In this document: positions 4,920 through 19,417 of the stretch, piece after piece
Layout of the letters: each line of letters begins with the position of its first letter
Position numbering within the stretch: the first letter of the stretch is position 1
IMG/VR virus record: IMGVR_UViG_3300048927_000157
Location: 1-64,000 of that record
Source of the DNA: a virus
Reading direction: 5' to 3' (one strand)
Length of the DNA: 64,000 bases
Program-made: the position numbers and the translations under genes
The notes under the pieces: model-generated
Told to the model about the DNA's origin: nothing
Databases searched by the model: none
The model's input: only the letters and a program-made list of their open reading frames with translations

Positions 4920-5885
4920 ATGGCAGAAAAGAAATTAAGTTTAGATGAGTTCCTAACATCAATGAATAAAAGTTTTGGGGAAGGAAGTTTAATAGTTCTA
5001 GGAAATGCTAACACTCAGAAAGTAGATTGTAATCCTGTTGGAGTTTATTCTATTGACGATTGTATGGGTGGTGGATTTGCTAAAGGTAGAATCATTGAAA
5101 TCTACGGTCCAGAATCTTCTGGTAAAACTTCATTAACCTTAATGGCTATTGCAGAAGCTCAAAAAGAAGGTAAGATTTGTGCTTTCGTAGACGTTGAGCA
5201 AGCCTTTGATGCAAGCTATGCAAAAAAATTAGGAGTAGATCTAGATAAACTGGTTGTAAACCAACCTGGATTTGGGGAAGAAGCTTTACAGATTTTAGAT
5301 AAAATGATTGAGTCAGGATTGTTTGACATCATTGTATTTGATTCTATTGCAGCAGTAACTCCTAAATCAGAACTAGAGGACGAAATGGGAACCAAGAAAA
5401 TGGGAGAGGTAGCAAGGCTTATGGCTCAGGCACTAAGAAAAATTACAGCTAAGACAAATGAGACCCATACTACTGTAATCTTTATCAATCAGTTGAGAGA
5501 AAAGATTGGTATTATGTTTGGTAATCCAGAGACCACAACAGGTGGTAATGCAATGAAGTTCTATGCTTCTCAAAGAATTGATGTAAGAAAAGGTCAACTA
5601 ATCAAAGAGGGAGACAATGTTATTGGTTATTTGATGAAAATTAAAGTAATCAAAAATAAGATTGCTGCTCCTTTTAAAGAAACAATTGTAAGTGTATATT
5701 ACAACGAGGGAGTTGATAAGATGCAGGACTTACTTGAGTTTGCCATCAAAAATGGTGTTGTCCAAAAGAATGGATCTTGGATAAGCTATGAAGGAACAAA
5801 CATTGCACAAGGGGCTCAGAAGGCAGCACAAATGCTAAAAGATAATCCAGAACTAGTGGATGAGATTATCTCTAAATTAAAATAA
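4920..5885 (+). CDS. recA: RecA recombinase
   Basis: GPESSGKTSLTL Walker A, IIVFDSIAA Walker B, and typical RecA length and L1/L2 region (FINQLREKIG...GNPETTTGGNAMKFYAS). Confidence 0.95.
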   Translation: MAEKKLSLDEFLTSMNKSFGEGSLIVLGNANTQKVDCNPVGVYSIDDCMGGGFAKGRIIEIYGPESSGKTSLTLMAIAEAQKEGKICAFVDVEQAFDASYAKKLGVDLDKLVVNQPGFGEEALQILDKMIESGLFDIIVFDSIAAVTPKSELEDEMGTKKMGEVARLMAQALRKITAKTNETHTTVIFINQLREKIGIMFGNPETTTGGNAMKFYASQRIDVRKGQLIKEGDNVIGYLMKIKVIKNKIAAPFKETIVSVYYNEGVDKMQDLLEFAIKNGVVQKNGSWISYEGTNIAQGAQKAAQMLKDNPELVDEIISKLK

Positions 5886-5891
5886 ACACAA

Positions 5892-6350
5892 ATGAATTGG
5901 ACTCTTAAAGGAAGGGAAGTCAAACACATAAAAGACTTCCCTGAAGGAGCCATCGGATTTATTTACATGCTTCACTTCTCAAACGGGAAGAAATACATTG
6001 GAAGAAAATCTTTATACTCTTATACTAAAAGAAATTTTGGTAAGAAAGAGTTGGCTCTTATTACAGACAAAAGGTTGAAAACTTATGAAATTGTCAAAAA
6101 AGAAGTTAAGTGGCAAAGTTATACTGGTTCCTCTGGAAGAGAAGCTAAAGGAGCAATGGATGACGGTGCTCACCTGGTTAAAAAAGAAATACTAAAAATA
6201 TGCTTTACCAAGAAGCAGATTACATATTATGAGACACAATGTTTGTTTGCATATGGTACTCTTGAAGGTGATGACTACTACAATGACAATATCTTAGGTA
6301 AATTTTATAGAAGAGACTTAGATTATGATAAAGAGATTTTATTGGAATGA
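5892..6350 (+). CDS. GIY-YIG-like nuclease domain protein
   Basis: GFIYMLHFSNGKKYIGRKS (GIY...YIG spacing), with downstream E and N residues. Confidence 0.5.
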   Translation: MNWTLKGREVKHIKDFPEGAIGFIYMLHFSNGKKYIGRKSLYSYTKRNFGKKELALITDKRLKTYEIVKKEVKWQSYTGSSGREAKGAMDDGAHLVKKEILKICFTKKQITYYETQCLFAYGTLEGDDYYNDNILGKFYRRDLDYDKEILLE

Positions 6351-6822
6351 TGAACTAAACGAAGAAACTTTTGAGGCTTTTCTTCAGTTCCAGAATGAAC
6401 TTCCTGAAGGTATGAAGTTCGAAGTGTGGTTAGATTCACCAGGAGGTAAGTGTATTATTGCAGAAATGCTAAGGGAAATCTTTGAGTCATATGACCCAGA
6501 ACAGTTTCAATTGGTTGCTTGTGGTAATATTTTTAGTGCAGCCTTTGATCTATTTGTTACTGTAAAATGTCCGAAGTATCTTGTTCCTGGAACATCAGGA
6601 ATGGTTCATACTACTTCTAGGAGAGTATCAGTAAGACCCGTTACAGGTAAGATAAAATTAGATTTCACAGAGGATAAGTTGCTTTATAAAATGAAGTATC
6701 CTATCGTTGAGGAAGTTGAGGCAAAATTACCAAGTATTCTAAGCAAAGAAGAGTTTGAAGCATACGAAAATGATGAGGACATATTCTTAACAACAGAAGA
6801 GATAAAAAAATTTTTAACATAA
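6325..6822 (+). CDS. ClpP/SppA-family serine protease-like protein (short)
   Basis: WLDSPGGKCIIAEML (ClpP INSPGG-like), GNIFSAAFDLF (Ser) and GMVHTT (His). Confidence 0.55.
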   Translation: MIKRFYWNDELNEETFEAFLQFQNELPEGMKFEVWLDSPGGKCIIAEMLREIFESYDPEQFQLVACGNIFSAAFDLFVTVKCPKYLVPGTSGMVHTTSRRVSVRPVTGKIKLDFTEDKLLYKMKYPIVEEVEAKLPSILSKEEFEAYENDEDIFLTTEEIKKFLT

Positions 6823-6837
6823 AATTAACTTTCATAT

Positions 6838-6871
6838 ATTTGCATATGTCAAAATAATATTGTACATTTGC
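6838..6871 (+). promoter_or_regulatory. phage consensus promoter
   Basis: TTTGCATATGTCAAAATAATATTGTACATTTGCA. Confidence 0.65.
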
Positions 6872-6908
6872 AATCTAATAAATAACTAATTAATAAAAAG
6901 TTTATAAC

Positions 6909-7730
6909 ATGGCAAAAGAATTCGGAACAGGAAGAAATTTCACATTTCTAAGAATCAATTCTAAAGGAGAATTATACGAGAGCTCAAAAGACCCTAAAGA
7001 AGGTTTTAATGAGATAGTTTTAGATCCAGGTACTCCAAATGAAAGAAAGACTTATCAAAAGTCTTATAAAAGTACCGATTATGGTAAGGTATCTTACCTT
7101 GCAATAACTGAGAAAAATTTCCCAAAAGGAAAGGTTAATTATGTGGAATTGTCAGTACAATCAGATGAAGATCCAACTGGAGTAGATGTGATTCAATTAC
7201 CACTAAGAAGCTTGAAAGGTGGATTAAATGATGAGGTAAAAAAATTGATTGCTATCCTACCAAGCTTAGATTACTCTAAGTCGATTATAATCTCTTCTAA
7301 TAGAGAGAAAAATCTGAGAGGATATGTAGACAAAATTTTGTATTTCAGATACAAACAAGAAGAAGGGCAAGATAAAGATACTCCAATTAAATTCTCATTG
7401 AAGTTCGGTGAAAAGGGAAATGTTCCTATGTTCTTAATTGAAGAGGACCCAATTAATCCGAGTCAGAAAACAATGAACTACAAAGATCAAGATAAATTTT
7501 TGTCTCAAGTTCTTATGTATGAGTTAAAAAGATACGAGGACTTTAAAGCTGGAAATGTATACCAATCTGAGTTTTACAAAGAGTGGGAACCAACTGAGGC
7601 TGATACAACAACTCCTCAAGCAACTACAGCACAACCAGCAGCTTCTCAAACTCCAGTTACAGCTACTACAACAGGTGAAAATCCTTTTGCAGCTAATGCA
7701 GTAGAGGAAGACGGGGATCTGCCATTCTAA
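6909..7730 (+). CDS. putative ssDNA-binding protein with SSB-type acidic C-terminal tip
   Basis: A Pro/Thr/Gln/Ala linker followed by ...EEDGDLPF at the extreme C-terminus (compare bacterial SSB DDDIPF). Located next to RecA and the exonuclease. Confidence 0.5.
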   Translation: MAKEFGTGRNFTFLRINSKGELYESSKDPKEGFNEIVLDPGTPNERKTYQKSYKSTDYGKVSYLAITEKNFPKGKVNYVELSVQSDEDPTGVDVIQLPLRSLKGGLNDEVKKLIAILPSLDYSKSIIISSNREKNLRGYVDKILYFRYKQEEGQDKDTPIKFSLKFGEKGNVPMFLIEEDPINPSQKTMNYKDQDKFLSQVLMYELKRYEDFKAGNVYQSEFYKEWEPTEADTTTPQATTAQPAASQTPVTATTTGENPFAANAVEEDGDLPF

Positions 7731-8814: not shown

Positions 8815-8889
8815 GGGTCTAAGGTGTAATTAAGGTCTGCACGATAGTCTGAAAAACTGTAGGACTGGGTTCGATTCCCAGTGGACCCA
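8815..8889 (+). tRNA. tRNA-Phe(GAA)
   Basis: GGGTCTA/TGGACCC, loop CTGAAAA, T arm CTGGG-TTCGATT-CCCAG. CCA is encoded. Confidence 0.85.
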
Positions 8890-14777: not shown

Positions 14778-15200
14778 ATGGAATCAAAAATCAGAGAAGA
14801 CTATGTAAAAGCTTTAAAAGCAAAAGATGCAGTAACAAAGAGCACACTATCACTTTTAATTAGTGCAGTGGATAATGAAAAGATTGCTCTTAGAAGAGAT
14901 TTAACAGTAGATGAAGTTACCAAACTTATCTCAAGGGAAATAAAGAAAAGGAATCAATCTATTGAAGCCTACACCCTTTCCAAGAGAATTGATCTTGCTG
15001 TTAAGGAAGAATCAGAATTAAAAGTTCTTGAGTCTTACCTACCTCAGGCTTTAACTTATCCTGAATTAATCTCTTTGGTTAGACTAACTAAAGCAACTAA
15101 CCCAGGAATCCATGAAGGTAAACTATTTGGTTTAATCAACAAGGAATGTAAAGGTGTTACAAAAGCAGAGGAAATTAAAAAAGCAATAGCTGAAGCTTAA
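14778..15200 (+). CDS. GatB/YqeY-domain protein
   Basis: IREDYVKALKAKD...TLSLLISAV...EVTKLISREIKKRNQSIEAY...ELKVLESYLPQ follows the YqeY family pattern. Confidence 0.8.
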   Translation: MESKIREDYVKALKAKDAVTKSTLSLLISAVDNEKIALRRDLTVDEVTKLISREIKKRNQSIEAYTLSKRIDLAVKEESELKVLESYLPQALTYPELISLVRLTKATNPGIHEGKLFGLINKECKGVTKAEEIKKAIAEA

Positions 15201-15592
15201 TGAAAGTTATTATTGCAGGAGGAAGAGAGTTCAATAATTATGGACTTGTTAAAACCAAGTGTGATTACTTTCTAAAGAATCATGGTGACATCGAAATAGT
15301 TTCAGGCAGATGTTCTACGGGAATAAAAACATTCACAACATCAGACGGTATTAACGTATTTGGTGCAGATGGTCTCGGAGAATTATATGCTGCCGAAAAC
15401 AATTATAAAGTTCTACCCTATCCAGCCGATTGGAAAATGCATGGTAAAGCAGCAGGACCGATCAGAAATGAGCAAATGGCTCAGGAAGCTCATGTGCTTA
15501 TAGCTTTCTGGGACGGGATTAGCAAAGGAACAAAAGGAATGATAGATTATATGAAAAGTATGGGTAAACCAGTACGAGTAGTGTACTACTGA
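15200..15592 (+). CDS. SLOG-family (DUF2493-like) protein
   Basis: MKVIIAGGR...VSGRCSTG..GADGLGELYA...PADWKMHGKAAGPIRNEQM...LIAFWDGISKGTKGMI. Confidence 0.65.
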   Translation: MKVIIAGGREFNNYGLVKTKCDYFLKNHGDIEIVSGRCSTGIKTFTTSDGINVFGADGLGELYAAENNYKVLPYPADWKMHGKAAGPIRNEQMAQEAHVLIAFWDGISKGTKGMIDYMKSMGKPVRVVYY

Positions 15593-15648
15593 TAAACTTC
15601 GGGATAGTTTTGTATCTTTCAACCCCGTAAATAAAAGATACTTTATAT

Positions 15649-15721
15649 GGTGGTATTATTGTAGTGGTTAGCATGTTAGACTGTGACTCTGACGGGAAGG
15701 GTTCGAATCCCTTATATCACC
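15649..15721 (+). tRNA. tRNA-His(GTG) with encoded G-1
   Basis: G-1 plus GTGGTAT/ATATCAC and discriminator C, TTAGA-CTGTGAC-TCTGA, AAGGG-TTCGAAT-CCCTT. Confidence 0.85.
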
Positions 15722-15744
15722 CAAACTACAAGAAGGTAGATTAG

Positions 15745-15790
15745 ATGTTGTTAGTATGTGAAGTCTTATATTAACAACATTTTTATTTTA
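15745..15790 (+). terminator. rho-independent terminator
   Basis: ATGTTGTTA...TAACAACAT followed by TTTTTATTTT. Confidence 0.65.
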
Positions 15791-15891
15791 AAAAACATTA
15801 TGAGTTGGATTTATAAAATACCAGTCGAGAACATTGTTTTCATTGTCTTCTCAATCATCGAAAAACTTTAACAAAATTTTAACAAAAAATA

Positions 15892-15925
15892 TTTGCATAT
15901 TAAGAAAAGTTTTTATATCTTTGCA
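15892..15925 (+). promoter_or_regulatory. phage consensus promoter with upstream TTTAACAAAATTTTAAC element
   Basis: TTTGCATATTAAGAAAAGTTTTTATATCTTTGCA. The upstream element lies at 15866-15883. Confidence 0.7.
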
Positions 15926-15962
15926 AAGTAATAATTAATCAATAACCAAAAATCATAATAAG

Positions 15963-17639
15963 ATGTTCGACAGCAAACAAAAAAGTTTATTTGAAGTTAC
16001 TTCAAAAAACAAACCAGCAACATCTGCATTCGTTAATGCAGCTTTAAAGAAAGGAGCAGAAACACTATCGGGTAACGGAGCCCTAAAATATTCCTCAACA
16101 GGATCAGCATTAGTTGACCAGTTCGGAGTTATGGGTAAGTTCAAAGCACCAAGATCTTTCCAGGATATCAGTAGAGATGCTGAATTACTTTGGGCAGACG
16201 ATAAGTGGGATGCAGTAGCATTCTCTGTCTTCGTGAGAATGATCTCAAGACAGACTATGTATCAGGATGGTACAATGACTTCTGTTTCACAAAAAGGAGG
16301 AGAGCTTAGACATGAAGGTATCATGAGATTCTTATGGTTACACTTCAAGGATGAGAAAACTTTCTGGACTAACGTAGGTCTAATGATCTCAGCAGGATCA
16401 TGGAAAGATATCTTCACGATGCTTTCTTATGACTTAGTACACCACGGGTGGAATGGAAGAAAGTTAAACTGGAAAAAGTTTGGAGAACTTATCCTTTCAG
16501 GATTAGAAAATTCAAACACTAGTGACTTAATTAAAAAGTATCTTCCACAGATCAAAGCTAAATCTTCTTGCAAAACTGTTGAGGCTCAGGCTGATACAAT
16601 CATTGCTAAATGGATTTGCTCATTAGTATTCGGTACAAAAGAAAATGCAGGATCTACTTACAAACAGTACAGAAAATTAAAAACTTCTGGTACTGCTCAT
16701 GAATGGCAGAAGTTAATTTCTACAAAGCAATTTGATAGAATTGATTTCAACAAAGTTCATGGTAGAGCTCTTTCTAAACTTGTACAAGGTAAGTTCTTGT
16801 TCAACCAAAAACTTTCTGACAAGTATGCAGAGTGGATCAAGGCTCCAGAAACTAAAGAAGTTAAATACACAGGTTTCGTTCACGAGTTGTTCGAAGGTCT
16901 AGGTAAGAGAGCTAGAAGAAAAGTTACTTCTCAAGAGGAAGAAACTATTAACAAGCAATTTGCTACTCTTGTTAAAAAAGGTGGAGAGACTGGTCAAACT
17001 AGTCTAATTGTAGTAAGAGATACATCAGGATCTATGAGCTCACCAGCTACTGGAACTACGATGAGCTGCTACGATATTGCTAAGGCACTTGCCCTTTACT
17101 TCTCTGAATTCTTAACAGGTAGATTTGCAGATGCATGGATCGAGTTCAACTCAGATGCTCAGATGCATACTTGGAAAGGTCAGACTCCAGTAGACAAGTG
17201 GAAAAACGATCACTCAAGTTACGTTGGTGGTACTAACTTCCAATCAGTAATTAACCTTTTCGTTAATCTGAAGCAAAAAGGAATTTCAGAAGAAGATTTC
17301 CCAACAGGAATCTTATGTATCTCTGATAGTGAATTCAACCCAACTTCGTTAGGTAAAACTAACGTTGAAACTGCAAAGGAAACTTTGAGAAGAGCTGGGT
17401 TCTCTAAAGAGTATGTGGATAACTTTGTGATTGTTCTTTGGAACCTACAGTCAGGATACTACGGTAGAGGGACTGGAGAGAAGTTTGAAACTTATGGAGA
17501 CGTTAAAAACGTATTCTATTTCAGTGGATACTCTGCTACCACTGTAGGATTCTTGACTAACACCAAGATCAAAACAGCAGAAGAATTAGTAAGAGAGGCA
17601 TTGTCTCAGGAGCTGATTCAAAGAGTAGAAGTTCTATAA
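15963..17639 (+). CDS. DUF2828-like protein: helical N-terminal domain plus C-terminal vWA/MIDAS domain (Ro60-like architecture)
   Basis: N-terminal ...LSGNGALKYSSTGSALVDQFG... (remembered DUF2828 signature). A vWA MIDAS motif VVRDTSGSMSS sits near residue 350. 558 aa. Confidence 0.7.
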   Translation: MFDSKQKSLFEVTSKNKPATSAFVNAALKKGAETLSGNGALKYSSTGSALVDQFGVMGKFKAPRSFQDISRDAELLWADDKWDAVAFSVFVRMISRQTMYQDGTMTSVSQKGGELRHEGIMRFLWLHFKDEKTFWTNVGLMISAGSWKDIFTMLSYDLVHHGWNGRKLNWKKFGELILSGLENSNTSDLIKKYLPQIKAKSSCKTVEAQADTIIAKWICSLVFGTKENAGSTYKQYRKLKTSGTAHEWQKLISTKQFDRIDFNKVHGRALSKLVQGKFLFNQKLSDKYAEWIKAPETKEVKYTGFVHELFEGLGKRARRKVTSQEEETINKQFATLVKKGGETGQTSLIVVRDTSGSMSSPATGTTMSCYDIAKALALYFSEFLTGRFADAWIEFNSDAQMHTWKGQTPVDKWKNDHSSYVGGTNFQSVINLFVNLKQKGISEEDFPTGILCISDSEFNPTSLGKTNVETAKETLRRAGFSKEYVDNFVIVLWNLQSGYYGRGTGEKFETYGDVKNVFYFSGYSATTVGFLTNTKIKTAEELVREALSQELIQRVEVL

Positions 17640-17676
17640 GGTGAAAATCCTTTAACATAAAATTAACACTGCAAAA

Positions 17677-17710
17677 TTTGCATATCTCAAAAAGATTTTG
17701 TATCTTTGCA
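17677..17710 (+). promoter_or_regulatory. phage consensus promoter driving the tRNA-like array
   Basis: TTTGCATATCTCAAAAAGATTTTGTATCTTTGCA, with upstream TTTAACATAAAATTAAC. No ORF follows for about 1.06 kb. Confidence 0.7.
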
Positions 17711-17935
17711 GTGTTATTAATGAGGTTACTATCAGCAAATACACAACAAAAACATATAATTGATTCAAAAATAAGTAACGTAGAATGCAAAAGCACAGCC
17801 ATCTCTACACTTCGAGTCCTGTATGTGAGAAGTAAAATTGTATAGGAAGGTCTTGAGATGACTTTAAAAGCAAGCAGAGGATTAAAACCCTTGGTAACCT
17901 GTCTATAAAAACTCATACAGCAACTATAAAGCAAC

Positions 17936-18032
17936 GGTATCATAAACCCCAGTCAGAGGTTCGAATCCTCTCCTCCCAACAAAGTTAAATCTTAAAAAAT
18001 ACATCGGGAGGTAGTGAAGTGGTTATCACGGG
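17936..18032 (+). ncRNA. circularly permuted tRNA gene, initiator-like tRNA-Met(CAT): 3' half, 25-nt linker, 5' half
   Basis: 17936-17979 GGT-ATCATAA-ACCCC-AGTC-AGAGG-TTCGAAT-CCTCT-CCTCCCA-A; 18005-18032 CGGGAGG-TA-GTGA-AGTGGTTA-TCAC-G-GG. Joined, they give a 72-nt cloverleaf with a C1xA72 mismatch and anticodon stem GGGGT/ACCCC. Confidence 0.65.
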
Positions 18033-18085
18033 TAAAAGCAAAAAGTGAGTTTTGATAAAGTTTCATACAGCAAACACACAGTTAA

Positions 18086-18179
18086 GCATTGAAAGCCGTT
18101 GGTCGGGGGTTCGAGTCCTTCCTCCCAAACAAAGTTAAATCTAGAAATCTTTGGGAGTAGCTCAGTTGGTAGAGCAACG
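18086..18179 (+). ncRNA. circularly permuted tRNA gene, anticodon TGA with short variable arm: 3' half, 21-nt linker, 5' half
   Basis: 18086-18129 GC-ATTGAAA-GCCGT-TGGTC-GGGGG-TTCGAGT-CCTTC-CTCCCAA-A; 18151-18179 TTGGGAG-TA-GCTC-AGTTGGTA-GAGC-A-ACG. Joined, every stem is fully paired (73 nt; G-U pairs in the T stem). Confidence 0.65.
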
Positions 18180-18497
18180 TTAAAACAAAAAATGAAACTT
18201 GAATAAGAACAGTAACAGCAAATTTTATCACAGAAACTACCATCTTAAGTTTTATGGTGTAACAGGTAGCACACTGGGAATAAGAATCCCAGAGGTTTTG
18301 GTTCGAATCCATCTTAGATAATCTGTTCTGACAAGATTGCTAACAGCAAATTAAACAAACACTTGAATTTTAATCAAACCTAGTTTAGTATGCAATCTGA
18401 AAAAATTACCTACAGCAAACTAAAACAAAATCAAAATAGGAAATTTGAAAAACAAAAGGTAATTTGATAAAGCTACACACAGCAAATAAACGTTTAT

Positions 18498-18599
18498 AAA
18501 TTTTTATTTGGATTAAAAACGATTTGGGTTCGAATCCCGAAGCCCTTGACCGAGGCACTTGGATGTGGAATATCGGTGTCAACAAGACCTGTAGCTTGT
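18498..18599 (+). ncRNA. degenerate permuted tRNA-like module (anticodon arm, T arm, closed helix, D-like hairpin)
   Basis: TTTTA-TTTGGAT-TAAAA (TGG loop), TTGGG-TTCGAAT-CCCGA, helix TTGACCGA/TCGG(TG)TCAA capped by a 19-nt loop, then CAAG-ACCTGTAG-CTTG. The geometry is imperfect. Confidence 0.3.
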
Positions 18600-18603
18600 A
18601 TTT

Positions 18604-18675
18604 GGTCCGTTCGTCTATCGGTGAGGACATTAGATTTTCGATCTAAGAAGATGGGTTCGATTCCCATACGGACTA
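18604..18675 (+). tRNA. tRNA-Glu(TTC)
   Basis: GGTCCGT/ACGGACT, TTAGA-TTTTCGA-TCTAA, ATGGG-TTCGATT-CCCAT. Confidence 0.9.
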
Positions 18676-18680
18676 CAATT

Positions 18681-18754
18681 GGTTCTTTAGCTCAACTAGG
18701 TAGAGCAGCAGTCTCTAAAACTGTGTGTTATGGGTTCGAATCCCATAAGAATCA
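18681..18754 (+). tRNA. amber suppressor tRNA, anticodon CTA
   Basis: GGTTCTT/AAGAATC, GCTC-AACTAGGTA-GAGC, GCAGT-CTCTAAA-ACTGT, GTGTT, ATGGG-TTCGAAT-CCCAT. The 7-nt loop has U33, CTA and A37. Confidence 0.85.
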
Positions 18755-18774
18755 CAACCAAAATTTTATACATT

Positions 18775-19134
18775 ATGAAAAAAGGAGACGAATTAGTAGG
18801 TTAGGTTGGAAATGAATTCCTAACTATTATTACAAGAGAAGACCTGAAACCAGGTTACAAATGTGTGCAAAGTGCACATGCATTGGCTGATTTTGCAGTC
18901 AAGTTTGAAGATGAATTTAAGCAGTGGCAGTTGGGTAGTAATTACCTGTGTTGCCTGGAAGCTTCGGAATCCAAAATTGAAAGGATACTCCACAGATTAG
19001 ATGACTTAAAAATTAAGTACCATAAATTCTTGGAACCTGATATCGGAAACCAAATGACAGCAGTAGCTGTTGAAGCAATCTCCAGAGAACAACATAAAAA
19101 ACTTTTTAAGAATTTACAACTAACATTAAATTAA
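18775..19134 (+). CDS. PTH2-like (peptidyl-tRNA hydrolase 2 family) protein with an in-frame TAG at codon 10
   Basis: ATG 18775, then MKKGDELVG-TAG(18802)-VGNEFLTIITREDLKPGYKCVQSAHA... The LTIITREDL..G.K.VQSAHA block matches the PTH2 N-terminus and lies upstream of the GTG (18865) used in the track. There is no in-frame start between 18805 and 18864. Confidence 0.5.
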
Positions 19135-19141
19135 AATTATC

Positions 19142-19417
19142 ATGAAAAAATTTGAGGCAATCAGACAAGCAATAAAAACATTATCAGAGGACCAAAAAAA
19201 ATACAAGCCTTTGAGAAAACCTTCTAACATTAAAGCAGATGACCCAGACTCTCCAGAATGGTATCAGCAAGCTGTTAGAAGTAACAAATATGAGCTAAGA
19301 CACTTATTCCAGGCTTACTCTGTACTGAAAGGAAAGCAAAGGCAGGAAACAAAAAGAAAGGAGATCTCCGAATCTTATGTAACTAAACTTGTGCAGCAGT
19401 ATGGAGACAATTTGTAA
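19142..19417 (+). CDS. hypothetical protein
   Basis: Co-directional ORF. No motif recognised. Confidence 0.55.
   Translation: MKKFEAIRQAIKTLSEDQKKYKPLRKPSNIKADDPDSPEWYQQAVRSNKYELRHLFQAYSVLKGKQRQETKRKEISESYVTKLVQQYGDNL

What the first reader, a model, noticed from the sequence alone, without database searches (positions are those of the whole stretch)
15963..18603. Ro60-like (helical domain + vWA/MIDAS) gene immediately upstream of the permuted tRNA-like array: a possible phage Ro/Y-RNA-type module
The 558-aa product of 15963..17639 has a roughly 340-aa helical N-terminal region followed by a vWA domain with a DxSxS MIDAS motif (VVRDTSGSMSS). That is the size and domain order of Ro60/Rsr (TROVE + vWA). 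Its N-terminus carries the NGALxYSSTGSALVDxF-type signature I associate with DUF2828.

In bacteria, rsr genes sit next to Y RNA genes (YrlA). As I recall, the YrlA effector domain is a tRNA mimic in which the T arm precedes the D arm and the acceptor helix is closed by a loop. That is the topology of the modules at 17936-18179 and 18498-18599 if they are not processed.

The module at 18545-18582 also contains a bulged helix, TTGACCGA/TCGG(TG)TCAA. It shares the UUGACC strand of the conserved Ro-binding helix of Y RNAs (GGUCCGA/UUGACC with a bulge). The array could therefore encode RNA partners of this protein rather than, or as well as, translatable tRNAs.
Basis: inference. Interest (0 to 1): 0.8.

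Follow-up and report, generated by a model that had tools for sequence, protein, structure and literature searches.

The report
Phage Ro60-like protein with partner RNAs
A phage gene for a Ro60-shaped RNA-binding protein sits next to six tandem small-RNA genes that share a closing stem and an ACAGCAA box, some carrying tRNA look-alikes. The same gene-plus-RNA pairing recurs in very different phages, which points to a widespread and so far undescribed ribonucleoprotein.

Summary
The ORF 15963-17639 is real and belongs to the DUF2828/DUF7788 family (PHROG 850). Its full-length AlphaFold model matches Ro60 structures as the nine best PDB hits. The helical N-domain alone gives no Ro60 hit, and profile comparison aligns only the vWA/MIDAS domain.

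The downstream "permuted tRNA-like array" is really six tandem units at 17908-18597. Each has a 7-9 bp terminal stem, an invariant ACAGCAA box just after the 5' strand, a variable payload and a 4-nt linker. Units 1 and 2 carry a YrlA-like T arm, closed acceptor and D arm. Unit 6 has a T arm plus hairpin, unit 3 a degenerate tRNA, and units 4 and 5 are about 65 nt.

The same units flank homologous genes in 75 of 80 metagenomic phage loci and in all 11 isolate-phage loci examined. Many of those loci have no tRNA genes nearby. A unit-like element also overlaps the gene's own start codon.

The helix it proposed as the Ro-binding site is not. The RNA family is absent from Rfam 15 and resembles Dictyostelium Class I RNAs. 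No binding has been shown.

The parts
15963..17639 (+). Gene for a 558-aa DUF2828/DUF7788 protein: helical N-domain (about residues 22-340) followed by a vWA domain with a DxSxS MIDAS motif (D353, S355, S357). The overall predicted architecture is Ro60-like.
   Evidence: Foldseek against PDB gives Ro60 as the top nine hits. BFVD hits are DUF7788/DUF2828 proteins and a 'Ro-like RNA binding protein'.
15961..16025 (+). Unit-like element overlapping the start of the gene. The stem is AGAUGUU (contains the AUG) paired with AACAUCU, and ACAGCAA lies at 15970-15976 (codons 3-5). It is a candidate translational operator for autoregulation.
   Evidence: The covariance model R1, which was not trained on this element, hits 15960-16028 at 27.8 bits, E 1.5e-3. 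RNAfold keeps the stem. ACAGCAA lies at +8 in 12 of 61 loci scored (the window, L001 and 59 IMG/VR loci), and an AGAUGU/ACAUCU stem of 6-8 bp occurs in about 15 of them.
17665..17715 (+). Perfect 11-bp inverted repeat AACACTGCAAA / TTTGCAGTGTT just after the stop codon. Its role is unknown.
   Evidence: Read directly from the sequence. It was not called as a terminator.
17725..17779 (+). Possible degenerate seventh unit with box UCAGCAA and a 6-bp stem GUUACU/AGUAAC.
   Evidence: R1 gives a weak hit of 19.3 bits, E 0.13. The fold is not better than shuffled sequence.
17908..18053 (+). Unit 1. Stem AAAACUCAU/GUGAGUUUU, ACAGCAA box, and a payload of a 4-bp junction helix, T arm, closed acceptor hairpin and D arm (a YrlA-like tRNA mimic).
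   Evidence: The RNAfold MFE structure is a four-way junction, z = -2.05.
18058..18200 (+). Unit 2. Stem AAGUUUCAU/AUGAAACUU, ACAGCAA box, and a payload of T arm, 7-8 bp closed acceptor and D arm.
   Evidence: Rfam YrlA RF02553 scores 36.2 bits at 18097-18180, below the gathering score of 69.
18206..18329 (+). Unit 3. Stem AGAACAG/CUGUUCU, ACAGCAA box, and a payload that is a degenerate normal-order tRNA-like sequence with a mismatched acceptor and a 9-nt anticodon loop.
   Evidence: Aragorn calls 'Leu-aag' at 18248-18321. Rfam tRNA scores only 32.8 bits, with non-canonical pairs marked in the acceptor.
18334..18398 (+). Unit 4. A short 65-nt unit with stem AGAUUGC/GCAAUCU and an ACAGCAA box.
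   Evidence: R1 scores 53.0 bits. Rfam Dicty_Class_I_RNA scores 27.9 bits, below the gathering score of 41.5. Fold.
18403..18465 (+). Unit 5. A short 63-nt unit with stem AAAUUACC/GGUAAUUU and an ACAGCAA box.
   Evidence: R1 scores 53.3 bits. Rfam Dicty_Class_I_RNA scores 21.3 bits. Fold.
18470..18597 (+). Unit 6. Stem AAGCUAC/GUAGCUU, ACAGCAA box, and a payload of a T arm plus a hairpin in the acceptor position. Its 19-20-nt loop is conserved.
   Evidence: orthologs in L002 and L003 covary in the helix and keep the loop. Fold z = -2.42.
18604..18755 (+). Canonical tRNA-Glu (18604-18676) and a tRNA with a CUA anticodon (18681-18755), starting 6 nt after unit 6. The units are embedded in the tRNA transcription region.

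Best explanation
The window carries one copy of a widespread phage module with two parts.

Part 1 is a DUF2828/DUF7788 protein. Its predicted architecture, an alpha-helical solenoid closed by a vWA/MIDAS domain, is that of Ro60.

Part 2 is a tandem array of small RNAs that play the role Y RNAs play for Ro60. Each RNA is closed by a 7-9 bp terminal stem that usually begins AG and ends CU. A single-stranded ACAGCAA box follows the 5' strand within 0-2 nt. A variable payload comes next, and neighbouring units are usually 4 nt apart (GAUA).

Inferred mechanism:
- The protein recognises the terminal stem plus ACAGCAA box. This parallels Ro60, which recognises a short 5'-proximal motif in the Y RNA stem.
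- The payloads act as effector modules. In units 1 and 2 the payload is a tRNA mimic whose anticodon arm is replaced by the protein-binding module, exactly the YrlA design. Such a payload could recruit or decoy tRNA-recognising host factors, or tether a nuclease as in Ro60/Y RNA/PNPase complexes.
- A copy of the element built around the gene's own AUG would let free protein repress its own translation.

Shown: the gene family, the fold similarity of the full-length model, the RNA family with its covarying stems, and the gene-RNA co-occurrence. Inferred: binding, autoregulation and the cellular role.
For: Protein:
- Foldseek of the pLDDT 86 / pTM 0.86 model gives Ro60 (Thermus phage phiLo, Xenopus, human) as ranks 1-9. 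E values run from 2e-5 to 2e-3 and TM scores up to 0.55.
- Relatives in mycobacteriophages are annotated 'Ro-like RNA binding protein'.

RNA family:
- In the window plus 81 related loci (795 kb), ACAGCAA occurs 383 times on the gene strand and 58 times on the other strand.
- 257 of the 383 have an exact closing stem of at least 7 bp. Decoy arms give about 10%, and the opposite strand gives 3 of 58.
- Every stem position shows changes on both sides of the pair. 89% of cells are paired, against 32-41% when partners are slid.
- The linker between adjacent units is 4 nt in 88 of 106 cases.

Co-occurrence:
- 75 of 80 IMG/VR loci have at least one unit on the gene strand, and 60 of 80 have at least two. 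The opposite strand has a unit in 3 of 80.
- Units lie beside the gene in the Leptolyngbya phage, E. coli Felixounavirus Alf5, Enterococcus EFDG1 and mycobacteriophage LeBron.
- They also lie beside the gene in Campylobacter, Sinorhizobium, Bacillus, Listeria and Aeromonas phages, in Staphylococcus phage Alsa_2 and in uncultured L155.
- Several of these loci have no tRNA genes near the gene.
- Among 120 loci picked by a DNA pattern alone, those with at least 3 units carry the gene in 3 of 3 cases. Those with 0-1 unit carry it in 0 of 114 cases.

Payloads and operator:
- Payloads with T arm, acceptor-like hairpin and D arm recur in Alf5, EFDG1, LeBron and Bacillus PJN02. Where scanned with Rfam (EFDG1, LeBron) they give sub-threshold full-length YrlA hits of 34-45 bits.
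- The operator-like element is detected by a covariance model that was not trained on it.
Against: - No binding data exist for any member of this family.
- The N-terminal domain modelled alone has a weaker model (pTM 0.59) and gives no Ro60 hit.
- Sequence and profile searches find no TROVE signal. Profile-profile comparison with a Ro60 family aligns only the vWA domain.
- Bas63 gp130 expressed alone, or inserted into T7, rescues T7 on the ppl defence system. At least that activity therefore does not need phage-encoded RNAs.
- The stem statistics come from units that were pre-selected for exact stems.
- The operator element has the exact box in only 12 of 61 loci scored, and it overlaps conserved codons.
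- Fold z-scores of single units are modest, from -0.7 to -2.4.
Confidence: 0.65

Rival explanations
1. The ACAGCAA units are independent small RNAs, or processing and punctuation signals of the phage's RNA-gene region, for example sites for a host or phage endonuclease. They have no physical link to the DUF2828 protein, and co-location only reflects a shared early 'RNA island'.
For: - The units are embedded in a tRNA region in the window and in several relatives.
- The regular 4-nt linkers suggest precise processing.
- gp130 works without phage RNAs against ppl.
Against: - The units follow the gene rather than the tRNAs. 34 of 60 related loci have no canonical tRNA within 4 kb, yet 75 of 80 carry units.
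- The Staphylococcus, Bacillus and LeBron loci have units but no nearby tRNAs.
- The box is conserved across phages of Actinobacteria, Firmicutes, Proteobacteria, Campylobacterota and cyanobacteria. That argues for a phage-encoded reader rather than a host enzyme.
- A unit-like copy sits on the gene's own start codon.
Confidence: 0.17
2. The protein is a vWA/MIDAS protein-binding factor, such as an anti-defence or chaperone-like protein, and not an RNA-binding protein. Its likeness to Ro60 is an architectural convergence of a helical solenoid plus a vWA domain.
For: - There is no TROVE signal by sequence or profile.
- The N-domain alone matches only generic HEAT/ARM solenoids.
- The ppl phenotype does not require phage RNAs.
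Against: - The full-length model aligns to Ro60 over about 550-590 columns with TM 0.4-0.55. Isolated vWA domains reach only TM about 0.19 when normalised by the query.
- Basic and aromatic residues in the N-domain are invariant across 22-24% identity: R64, R92, R96, K192, Y236, R237, Y288, K301.
- The tight linkage to a conserved RNA family is otherwise unexplained.
Confidence: 0.12
3. Units 1, 2 and 6 are true circularly permuted or split tRNA genes. They would be matured by end-joining at the closing stem plus RNase P and RNase Z processing into functional tRNAs.
For: - The 3' half precedes the 5' half, with a 7-8 bp acceptor stem and good T and D arms.
- Related phages encode RtcB or RNA ligases near the gene.
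Against: - No anticodon stem-loop can be assembled. Only a 4-bp junction helix leads into the ACAGCAA module.
- The same frame encloses payloads with no tRNA features at all: 157 short units, and 18 long units without T or D signatures.
- Unit 6 lacks a D arm.
- The 3' acceptor strand is not followed by CCA.
Confidence: 0.04

Closest known systems
Ro60 (Rsr, TROVE + vWA) with bacterial or phage Y RNAs: YrlA/YrlB, and Thermus phage phiLo phiRo60 with Yrl1/Yrl2
   Same: - A ring-type helical domain plus a vWA/MIDAS protein, encoded on the same strand as, and within a few kb of, several small RNAs.
- The RNAs have paired 5' and 3' ends and a short conserved 5'-proximal motif.
- One RNA class carries a tRNA mimic in the order T arm, closed acceptor, D arm (PMC4201824; PMC12135203).
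- Rfam YrlA gives full-length but sub-threshold hits on the tRNA-like units.
   Different: - The protein belongs to PF11443/PF25043, not to PF05731/PF25045, which mark true Ro60.
- No TROVE signal is found by sequence or profile.
- The RNA motif is ACAGCAA next to a short terminal stem, not GNCGAA(N)G / CGAA in a long bulged stem.
- Arrays hold up to about 10 units with fixed 4-nt linkers.
- Most units are only about 55-70 nt and have no tRNA-like part.
Dictyostelium Class I RNAs (Rfam RF01414)
   Same: [quoted passage not shown]
- Starts with (A)AG and ends with CUG(U); the rest is variable and A/U-rich (PMC7919456).
- RF01414 is the only Rfam family besides tRNA, tmRNA and YrlA that hits the units repeatedly, at 21-39.7 bits.
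   Different: - No phage unit reaches the gathering score of 41.5.
- The A/U-rich composition inflates scores.
- Class I RNAs are Pol II/III transcripts with DUSE promoters and are reported only in Dictyostelia.
- Their one shown direct binder is the RRM protein Rnp1A/CIBP.
- Whether dictyostelids have a DUF2828 protein could not be tested here.
Bas63 gp130 (PhageMaP preprint 10.1101/2024.10.10.617714)
   Same: - Bas63 belongs to the Felixounavirus group, and gp130 lies directly upstream of the tRNA stretch.
- Felixounavirus genomes carry a clear homolog of the window protein in the same position.
   Different: - That work named no RNA partner. Here, specific unannotated ACAGCAA-box units are identified between the tRNAs (Alf5 locus L082, boxes at 5368, 5534 and 6075).
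- The identity of gp130 with the Alf5 gp043 ortholog is inferred from taxonomy and position and was not checked by sequence.

Membership tests
DUF2828/DUF7788 (PF11443 + PF25043; PHROG 850) | Match to the C-terminal DUF7788 (vWA-like) profile above Pfam's cut-off | tested here: met
   PF25043 scores 50.9 bits against a cut-off of 27.1, over residues 349-546. PHROG 850 matches at E 1e-38 over residues 23-550.
DUF2828/DUF7788 (PF11443 + PF25043; PHROG 850) | Match to the N-terminal DUF2828 profile (PF11443) | tested here: inconclusive
   No PF11443 hit on the window protein at E<=1. Homologs of 62-67% identity carry a precomputed PF11443.14 hit. Distant phage homologs are annotated DUF2828.
Ro60 / TROVE family (PF05731 + vWA) | TROVE domain detectable by sequence or profile | tested here: not met
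   No PF05731 hit. No Ro60 among PDB sequence or profile hits. hhalign against human Ro60 and against a 21-sequence Ro60 profile aligns only the vWA/MIDAS region, at probability 3.7% and 39%.
Ro60 / TROVE family (PF05731 + vWA) | Ro60-like three-dimensional architecture: helical repeat ring closed by a vWA domain | tested here: inconclusive
   The full-length model has Ro60 as ranks 1-9, with TM up to 0.55 over about 550-590 columns. The N-domain model alone (pTM 0.59) gives no Ro60 hit; its best hit is at E 0.28.
Ro60 / TROVE family (PF05731 + vWA) | MIDAS motif DxSxS in the vWA domain | tested here: met
   D353-T-S355-G-S357 is invariant across the family. It aligns to the DVSGSM/DVSASM motif of Ro60.
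Ro60 / TROVE family (PF05731 + vWA) | Binds Y RNA or misfolded RNA | not testable with these tools
   Requires RIP, EMSA or a structure.
YrlA-type bacterial Y RNA (Rfam RF02553) | Score at or above the Rfam gathering threshold of 69 bits | tested here: not met
   36.2 bits in the window. 44.9, 39.8, 34.2 and 33.3 bits in relatives.
YrlA-type bacterial Y RNA (Rfam RF02553) | tRNA-like domain in the order T arm, acceptor-like stem-loop, D arm, with the ends paired in a protein-binding stem, encoded near and on the same strand as the protein gene | tested here: met
   Window units 1 and 2. 24 T-then-D units among relatives. Also in Alf5, EFDG1, LeBron and PJN02.
YrlA-type bacterial Y RNA (Rfam RF02553) | GNCGAA(N0-1)G motif near the 5' end | tested here: not met
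   The conserved 5'-proximal motif is ACAGCAA, with variants ACAGCGA, ACAGCYA and GCAGCAA.
Dictyostelium Class I RNA (Rfam RF01414) | Score at or above the gathering threshold of 41.5 bits | tested here: not met
   Best scores are 39.7 (L017) and 39.3 (L001). The window reaches 27.9 and 21.3.
Dictyostelium Class I RNA (Rfam RF01414) | Short terminal stem, CCUUACAGCAA-type box next to the 5' strand, AAG start and CUGU end, length about 60 nt | tested here: met
   The consensus of 257 units is (A)AG-stem-(0-2 nt)-ACAGCAA...stem-CU-GAU, with a main length mode of 55-70 nt. The family description is in PMC7919456.
Dictyostelium Class I RNA (Rfam RF01414) | DUSE promoter, dictyostelid origin, Rnp1A binding | not testable with these tools
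   These are phage sequences and no eukaryotic genome data were on hand.
Circularly permuted tRNA genes | A complete anticodon stem-loop can be reconstituted by joining the transcript ends | tested here: not met
   Only a 4-bp junction helix leads into the ACAGCAA module.

The most novel reading that the evidence does not exclude
The ACAGCAA-box RNAs and the Class I RNAs of Dictyostelium are one RNA class. Its conserved protein partner would be the DUF2828/DUF7788 Ro60-like protein, a family also found in eukaryotes and in giant viruses of protists. That would make a second, Ro/Y-like ribonucleoprotein system spanning phages, giant viruses and eukaryotes. It would also give Class I RNAs, whose function is unknown and which are thought to be unique to Dictyostelia, a candidate partner and an origin.
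Probability: 0.15. Interest if true: 0.92.

Novelty: new variant of a known kind. Interest (0 to 1): 0.78.

Why it matters
- Homologs of this gene occur in 535 phage records, including FelixO1-like, Listeria P100-like, Staphylococcus Twort-like and Enterococcus phages. They are annotated at best as 'RNA-binding protein' with no known RNA.
- This work names the likely RNA partners. They form a conserved family absent from Rfam 15 and found in none of the literature searches here. In deposited genomes they lie in unannotated gaps, and in Alf5 one lies under an annotated minus-strand CDS.
- The work supplies a covariance model and exact coordinates in culturable E. coli phages, so the hypothesis can be tested directly by RIP-seq, EMSA or deletion.
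- One family member, Bas63 gp130, is reported to counter the ppl defence system, so the ribonucleoprotein may bear on phage anti-defence.
- The recurrent tRNA-mimic payloads extend the Ro/Y-RNA design principle to a second protein family.
- The resemblance to Dictyostelium Class I RNAs gives a concrete lead on an RNA class that has lacked an explanation since 2004.

Tried and rejected
- PDB sequence and profile searches with the protein and with a 67-sequence profile found no Ro60.
- hhalign of a 20-sequence diverse profile against human Ro60 aligned only the MIDAS segment. The human sequence was first checked against 9nen.
- hhalign against a 21-sequence Ro60 profile aligned only the vWA domain, at probability 39%.
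- The N-domain-only AlphaFold model searched with Foldseek gave no significant hit.
- Scanning IMG/VR with the pattern GATAAG-N7-10-ACAGCAAA was poorly designed. Most of the 120 stretches returned were single chance matches. It was still usable as a reverse-association control.
- The promoter and terminator scan of 15500-19200 found nothing above the shuffled expectation.
- Literature searches for DUF2828, PF11443, UCP015417 and 'ACAGCAA' found nothing on these RNAs.
- Avesson 2011 is not held in the library.
- DDB_G0281243, the protein of unknown function pulled down with a Class I RNA, could not be characterised.
- The reading as true permuted tRNA genes was rejected.


Full report
**Observation**

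The ORF at 15963-17639 (+ strand, 558 aa) is present as described. It contains GNGALKYSSTGSALVDQF at residues 37-54 and IVVRDTSGSMSS at 349-360.

Pfam detects the C-terminal DUF7788 vWA-like domain at 349-546 (50.9 bits). PHROGs places the whole protein in phrog_850 'RNA-binding protein' (E 1e-38). PF11443 (DUF2828) is not detected on this protein itself. It is recorded for several homologs of 62-67% identity and for distant phage homologs.

The family is large. There are 2,126 clusters at E<=1e-5 among the candidates scored and 535 phage records. The closest isolate is Leptolyngbya phage Lbo-JY46 at 46% identity. The window has 35% G+C and carries at least 23 tRNA genes between 8.6 and 21 kb.

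**Is the protein Ro60-like?**

An AlphaFold2 model built from a 67-sequence alignment is confident, with pLDDT 85.9 and pTM 0.86. Helices span residues 22-340 and an alpha/beta domain spans 348-546.

Foldseek against the PDB returns Ro60 as ranks 1-9:
- The hits are Thermus phage phiLo Ro60 (9l5y), Xenopus Ro (1yvr, 2i91, 1yvp) and human Ro60 cryo-EM entries.
- E values run from 2e-5 to 2e-3, with 533-596 aligned columns and TM scores of 0.35-0.55.
- The next hits are isolated vWA domains, with TM about 0.19 when normalised by the query.

Against BFVD, the fold recurs in DUF7788/DUF2828 proteins of phages and of giant viruses. It also matches a Gordonia phage 'Ro-like RNA binding protein'.

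Three tests weaken the case for TROVE homology:
- PDB sequence and profile searches find no Ro60.
- hhalign of a diverse 20-sequence profile against human Ro60 aligns only the MIDAS segment. Against a 21-sequence Ro60 profile it aligns only the vWA domain (probability 39%, E 3e-4).
- A model of residues 1-345 alone is less confident (pLDDT 77, pTM 0.59). It retrieves only generic HEAT/ARM solenoids, with the best hit at E 0.28.

I therefore call the protein Ro60-like in architecture. Homology of its N-domain to TROVE is unproven.

**What the array really is**

Reading 17900-18600 shows six head-to-tail units rather than a set of permuted tRNAs. Each unit has:
- a terminal stem of 7-9 bp;
- the heptamer ACAGCAA 0-2 nt after the 5' strand;
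- a variable payload;
- the 3' strand, followed by a linker that is 4 nt (GAUA) between units 1 and 2 and between 4 and 5, and 4-5 nt elsewhere.

The coordinates are 17908-18053, 18058-18200, 18206-18329, 18334-18398, 18403-18465 and 18470-18597.

RNAfold keeps the closing stem in all six and leaves the box largely unpaired. Units 1 and 2 fold as four-way junctions of T arm, closed acceptor hairpin and D arm.

The payloads differ:
- Unit 2 matches Rfam YrlA at 36.2 bits, below the gathering score of 69.
- Units 4 and 5 match Dicty_Class_I_RNA at 27.9 and 21.3 bits, below the gathering score of 41.5.
- Unit 3 encloses a degenerate normal-order tRNA-like sequence.
- Unit 6 has a T arm plus a hairpin.

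A weak seventh unit may lie at 17725-17779.

**Is the pattern more than chance?**

The test set was the window plus 81 related loci: the Leptolyngbya phage and 80 IMG/VR loci with homologs of 45-93% identity, 795 kb in total.
- ACAGCAA occurs 383 times on the gene strand and 58 times on the opposite strand.
- 257 of the 383 have an exact closing stem of at least 7 bp within 260 nt. The rate is about 10% when the arm is shifted, or reversed without complementing, and 3 of 58 on the opposite strand.
- In an alignment of 66 short units, all nine stem positions show changes on both sides of the pair. 89% of cells are paired, against 32-41% when the partners are slid. These units were selected for exact stems, so the decoy comparison is the fairer test.
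- Adjacent units are exactly 4 nt apart in 88 of 106 cases.
- The consensus is (A)AG-stem-ACAGCAA...stem-CU-GAUA. Lengths have modes at 55-70 nt and at 90-145 nt.
- Of 107 long units, 24 have a T loop followed by a D loop, 44 have a T loop only and 13 have D before T. The 157 short units almost all lack tRNA features.

**Linkage to the gene**

In the metagenomic set, 75 of 80 IMG/VR loci carry at least one unit on the gene strand within about 4 kb, and 60 of 80 carry at least two. The opposite strand carries a unit in only 3 of 80.

The same arrangement is found in every more distant lineage examined, where the proteins are only 21-27% identical to the window protein:

| Phage | Units | Position relative to the gene |
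|---|---|---|
| E. coli Felixounavirus Alf5 | three, one with a T arm, acceptor-like hairpin and D arm | downstream |
| Enterococcus EFDG1 | three | upstream |
| Mycobacteriophage LeBron | three | downstream |
| Campylobacter NCTC12673 | two | upstream |
| Sinorhizobium phiM12 | one | about 1.9 kb upstream |
| Bacillus PJN02 | five | upstream |
| Listeria LP-083-2 | three | upstream |
| Aeromonas 4_4572 | about eight | upstream |
| Staphylococcus Alsa_2 | three, box variants ACAGCCA and ACAGCUA | downstream |
| Uncultured clade L155 | four | around the gene |

Reverse test: 120 loci were chosen by a DNA pattern alone. Those with at least three units carry the gene in 3 of 3 cases, and those with 0-1 unit carry it in 0 of 114 cases.

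The link is to the gene rather than to tRNA arrays. 34 of 60 related loci have no canonical tRNA or tmRNA within 4 kb. The Staphylococcus, Bacillus and LeBron loci also lack nearby tRNAs.

**An element on the gene's own start**

The sequence AG-AUG-UUC-GAC-AGC-AAA places the start codon inside a 5' stem strand (AGAUGUU). ACAGCAA falls at codons 3-5, and the complementary AACAUCU lies 56 nt downstream of the AUG.

The covariance model R1, built only from short intergenic units, hits 15960-16028 at 27.8 bits, E 1.5e-3.

Among the 61 loci scored, the exact box at +8 is present in 12, and a 6-8 bp AGAUGU/ACAUCU stem is present in about 15. Both arms overlap conserved codons, so this is suggestive and not decisive. 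It fits translational autoregulation by operator mimicry.

The helix UUGACCGA/UCGG(UG)UCAA in unit 6 is real. It sits where the acceptor hairpin sits in units 1 and 2.

In the 93% and 74% identical relatives it reads UUGGUUGA/UUAACUAA and UUGACUGG/UCAGUUAA. It covaries, has no bulge, and UUGACC is not conserved. Its loop is conserved instead. It is not a credible homolog of the Ro-binding helix.

**Mechanism**

The shown facts are:
- a Ro60-shaped protein family;
- a conserved, strand-specific RNA family with covarying stems;
- tight genomic coupling of the two across phages of very different hosts;
- YrlA-type tRNA mimicry in a subset of the RNAs.

From these I infer that the protein binds the terminal stem plus ACAGCAA box. 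Real bacterial Y RNAs offer a parallel: they have a short 5'-proximal motif, GNCGAA(N)G, that is thought to be the Ro60 contact. The payloads would then recruit or decoy other factors.

For phiLo, Ro60, a Y-like RNA and host PNPase assemble together. Nearby genes for RNA repair or tRNA-related functions fit an RNA-metabolism role:
- YqeY and a SLOG protein in the window;
- RtcB, an RNA ligase and an HD hydrolase in the Listeria phage;
- Rnl2 in the Aeromonas phage.

Against an obligatory RNA requirement, Bas63 gp130 alone rescues T7 on the ppl defence system.

**Comparison with what is known, and novelty**

Ro60/Y-RNA modules with true TROVE proteins are known in phages: mycobacteriophages, CcrColossus, Bacillus phage G and phiLo. 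The Ro60 likeness of this second family has been noticed before.

What appears new is the RNA family. Nothing in Rfam 15 reaches its gathering threshold on these units. My literature searches found no description of it. In deposited genomes the units lie in unannotated gaps, and in Alf5 one lies under an annotated minus-strand CDS.

I classify this as a new variant of a known kind.

**The Dictyostelium resemblance**

The only Rfam family other than tRNA, tmRNA and YrlA that hits the units repeatedly is Dictyostelium Class I RNA. Scores range from 21 to 39.7 bits, just under the gathering score of 41.5.

Class I RNAs are described as follows:
- about 60 nt long;
- a 6-bp terminal stem;
- the box CCUUACAGCAA next to the 5' strand;
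- starting with AAG and ending with CUGU;
- unknown function, and 'not found outside Dictyostelia'.

The positions most conserved in Dictyostelia (C6, C9, A10 and A11 of the box) all fall in the phage core. DUF2828/DUF7788 folds occur in giant viruses of protists, and papers that cite the family concern plants and a tardigrade.

One of the four proteins pulled down with Class I RNA DdR-21, DDB_G0281243, has no known function. I could not examine it. A/U-rich composition inflates the scores, so convergence or chance remains the more likely explanation. I give a true relationship about 15%.

Noticed in passing
window 18681-18755 (also L002 6820-6893, L003 6711-6782, L032, L033, L038): A well-formed tRNA with a CUA anticodon (Aragorn 'Pyl'; Rfam tRNA 67 bits), that is, an amber-suppressor-type tRNA. 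It is conserved in related phages and may indicate TAG recoding or suppression.
   Followed up: no
L054 4001-5698 (codon 239): The homolog in this IMG/VR contig has an in-frame TGA inside an otherwise intact gene. This may be a sequencing error or stop-codon recoding.
   Followed up: partly
window 8815-8889: Rfam calls a tRNA here (54.5 bits) that Aragorn did not report.
   Followed up: no
window 17665-17675 / 17705-17715: A perfect 11-bp inverted repeat (AACACTGCAAA / TTTGCAGTGTT) lies immediately after the gene's stop codon. It is not followed by a T-run and its function is unknown.
   Followed up: no
window 17980-17992 and 18130-18142 (acceptor-closing loops of units 1 and 2); also L002 and L003: The loops that close the acceptor-like hairpins share the sequence CAAAGUUAAAUCU, which suggests a conserved site such as a processing or binding site. 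The 19-20-nt loop of unit 6 (GGCACUYGGWGUGGARUAU) is likewise conserved.
   Followed up: partly
L082 (E. coli phage Alf5, NC_031082) 5967-6290 and 5598-5671, 6423-6496, 6825-6903, 7502-7588: An annotated minus-strand hypothetical CDS (BIZ90_gp133) overlaps a 126-nt ACAGCAA unit and is probably spurious. Several tRNA-like genes detected by Rfam are not annotated in the record.
   Followed up: partly
L083 (Enterococcus phage EFDG1) 3330-3760: Each of the three units is preceded by a conserved hairpin (GTTCC...GGAAC) followed by AUAAAG. This may be a promoter, a processing element or an extra structural module specific to this clade.
   Followed up: no
L045 6922-7281, L050 6806-7208, L083 59-409, L048 466-785: Phage-encoded tmRNA genes lie close to the gene. 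In L045 and L050 they sit just downstream of the unit arrays. In L083 and L048 they sit about 3.5 kb upstream of the gene.
   Followed up: no
L209 (Listeria phage LP-083-2) 7118-11350; L210 (Aeromonas phage 4_4572) 9657-10580; window 14778-15592: Genes for RNA repair or tRNA-related functions cluster near the Ro60-like gene: an RtcB-like ligase, an RNA ligase, an HD phosphohydrolase and a 'tRNA amidotransferase' in the Listeria phage; Rnl2 in the Aeromonas phage; YqeY and a YspA/SLOG protein in the window.
   Followed up: partly
L028 2958-3030, L030 839-911, L047 5752-5825, L060 839-911: Aragorn reports tRNAs with four-base anticodons (gcgt, gtgt, tttt) in related phage contigs. These are possible frameshift-suppressor-like or degenerate tRNAs.
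   Followed up: no
BFVD hits to the window protein model: The same fold is predicted for DUF2828/DUF7788 proteins of giant viruses of protists, including Pithovirus, Cafeteria roenbergensis virus, ChoanoV1, Marseillevirus, Mimivirus-like viruses and Bodo saltans virus. The family therefore spans phages and eukaryotic viruses.
   Followed up: no
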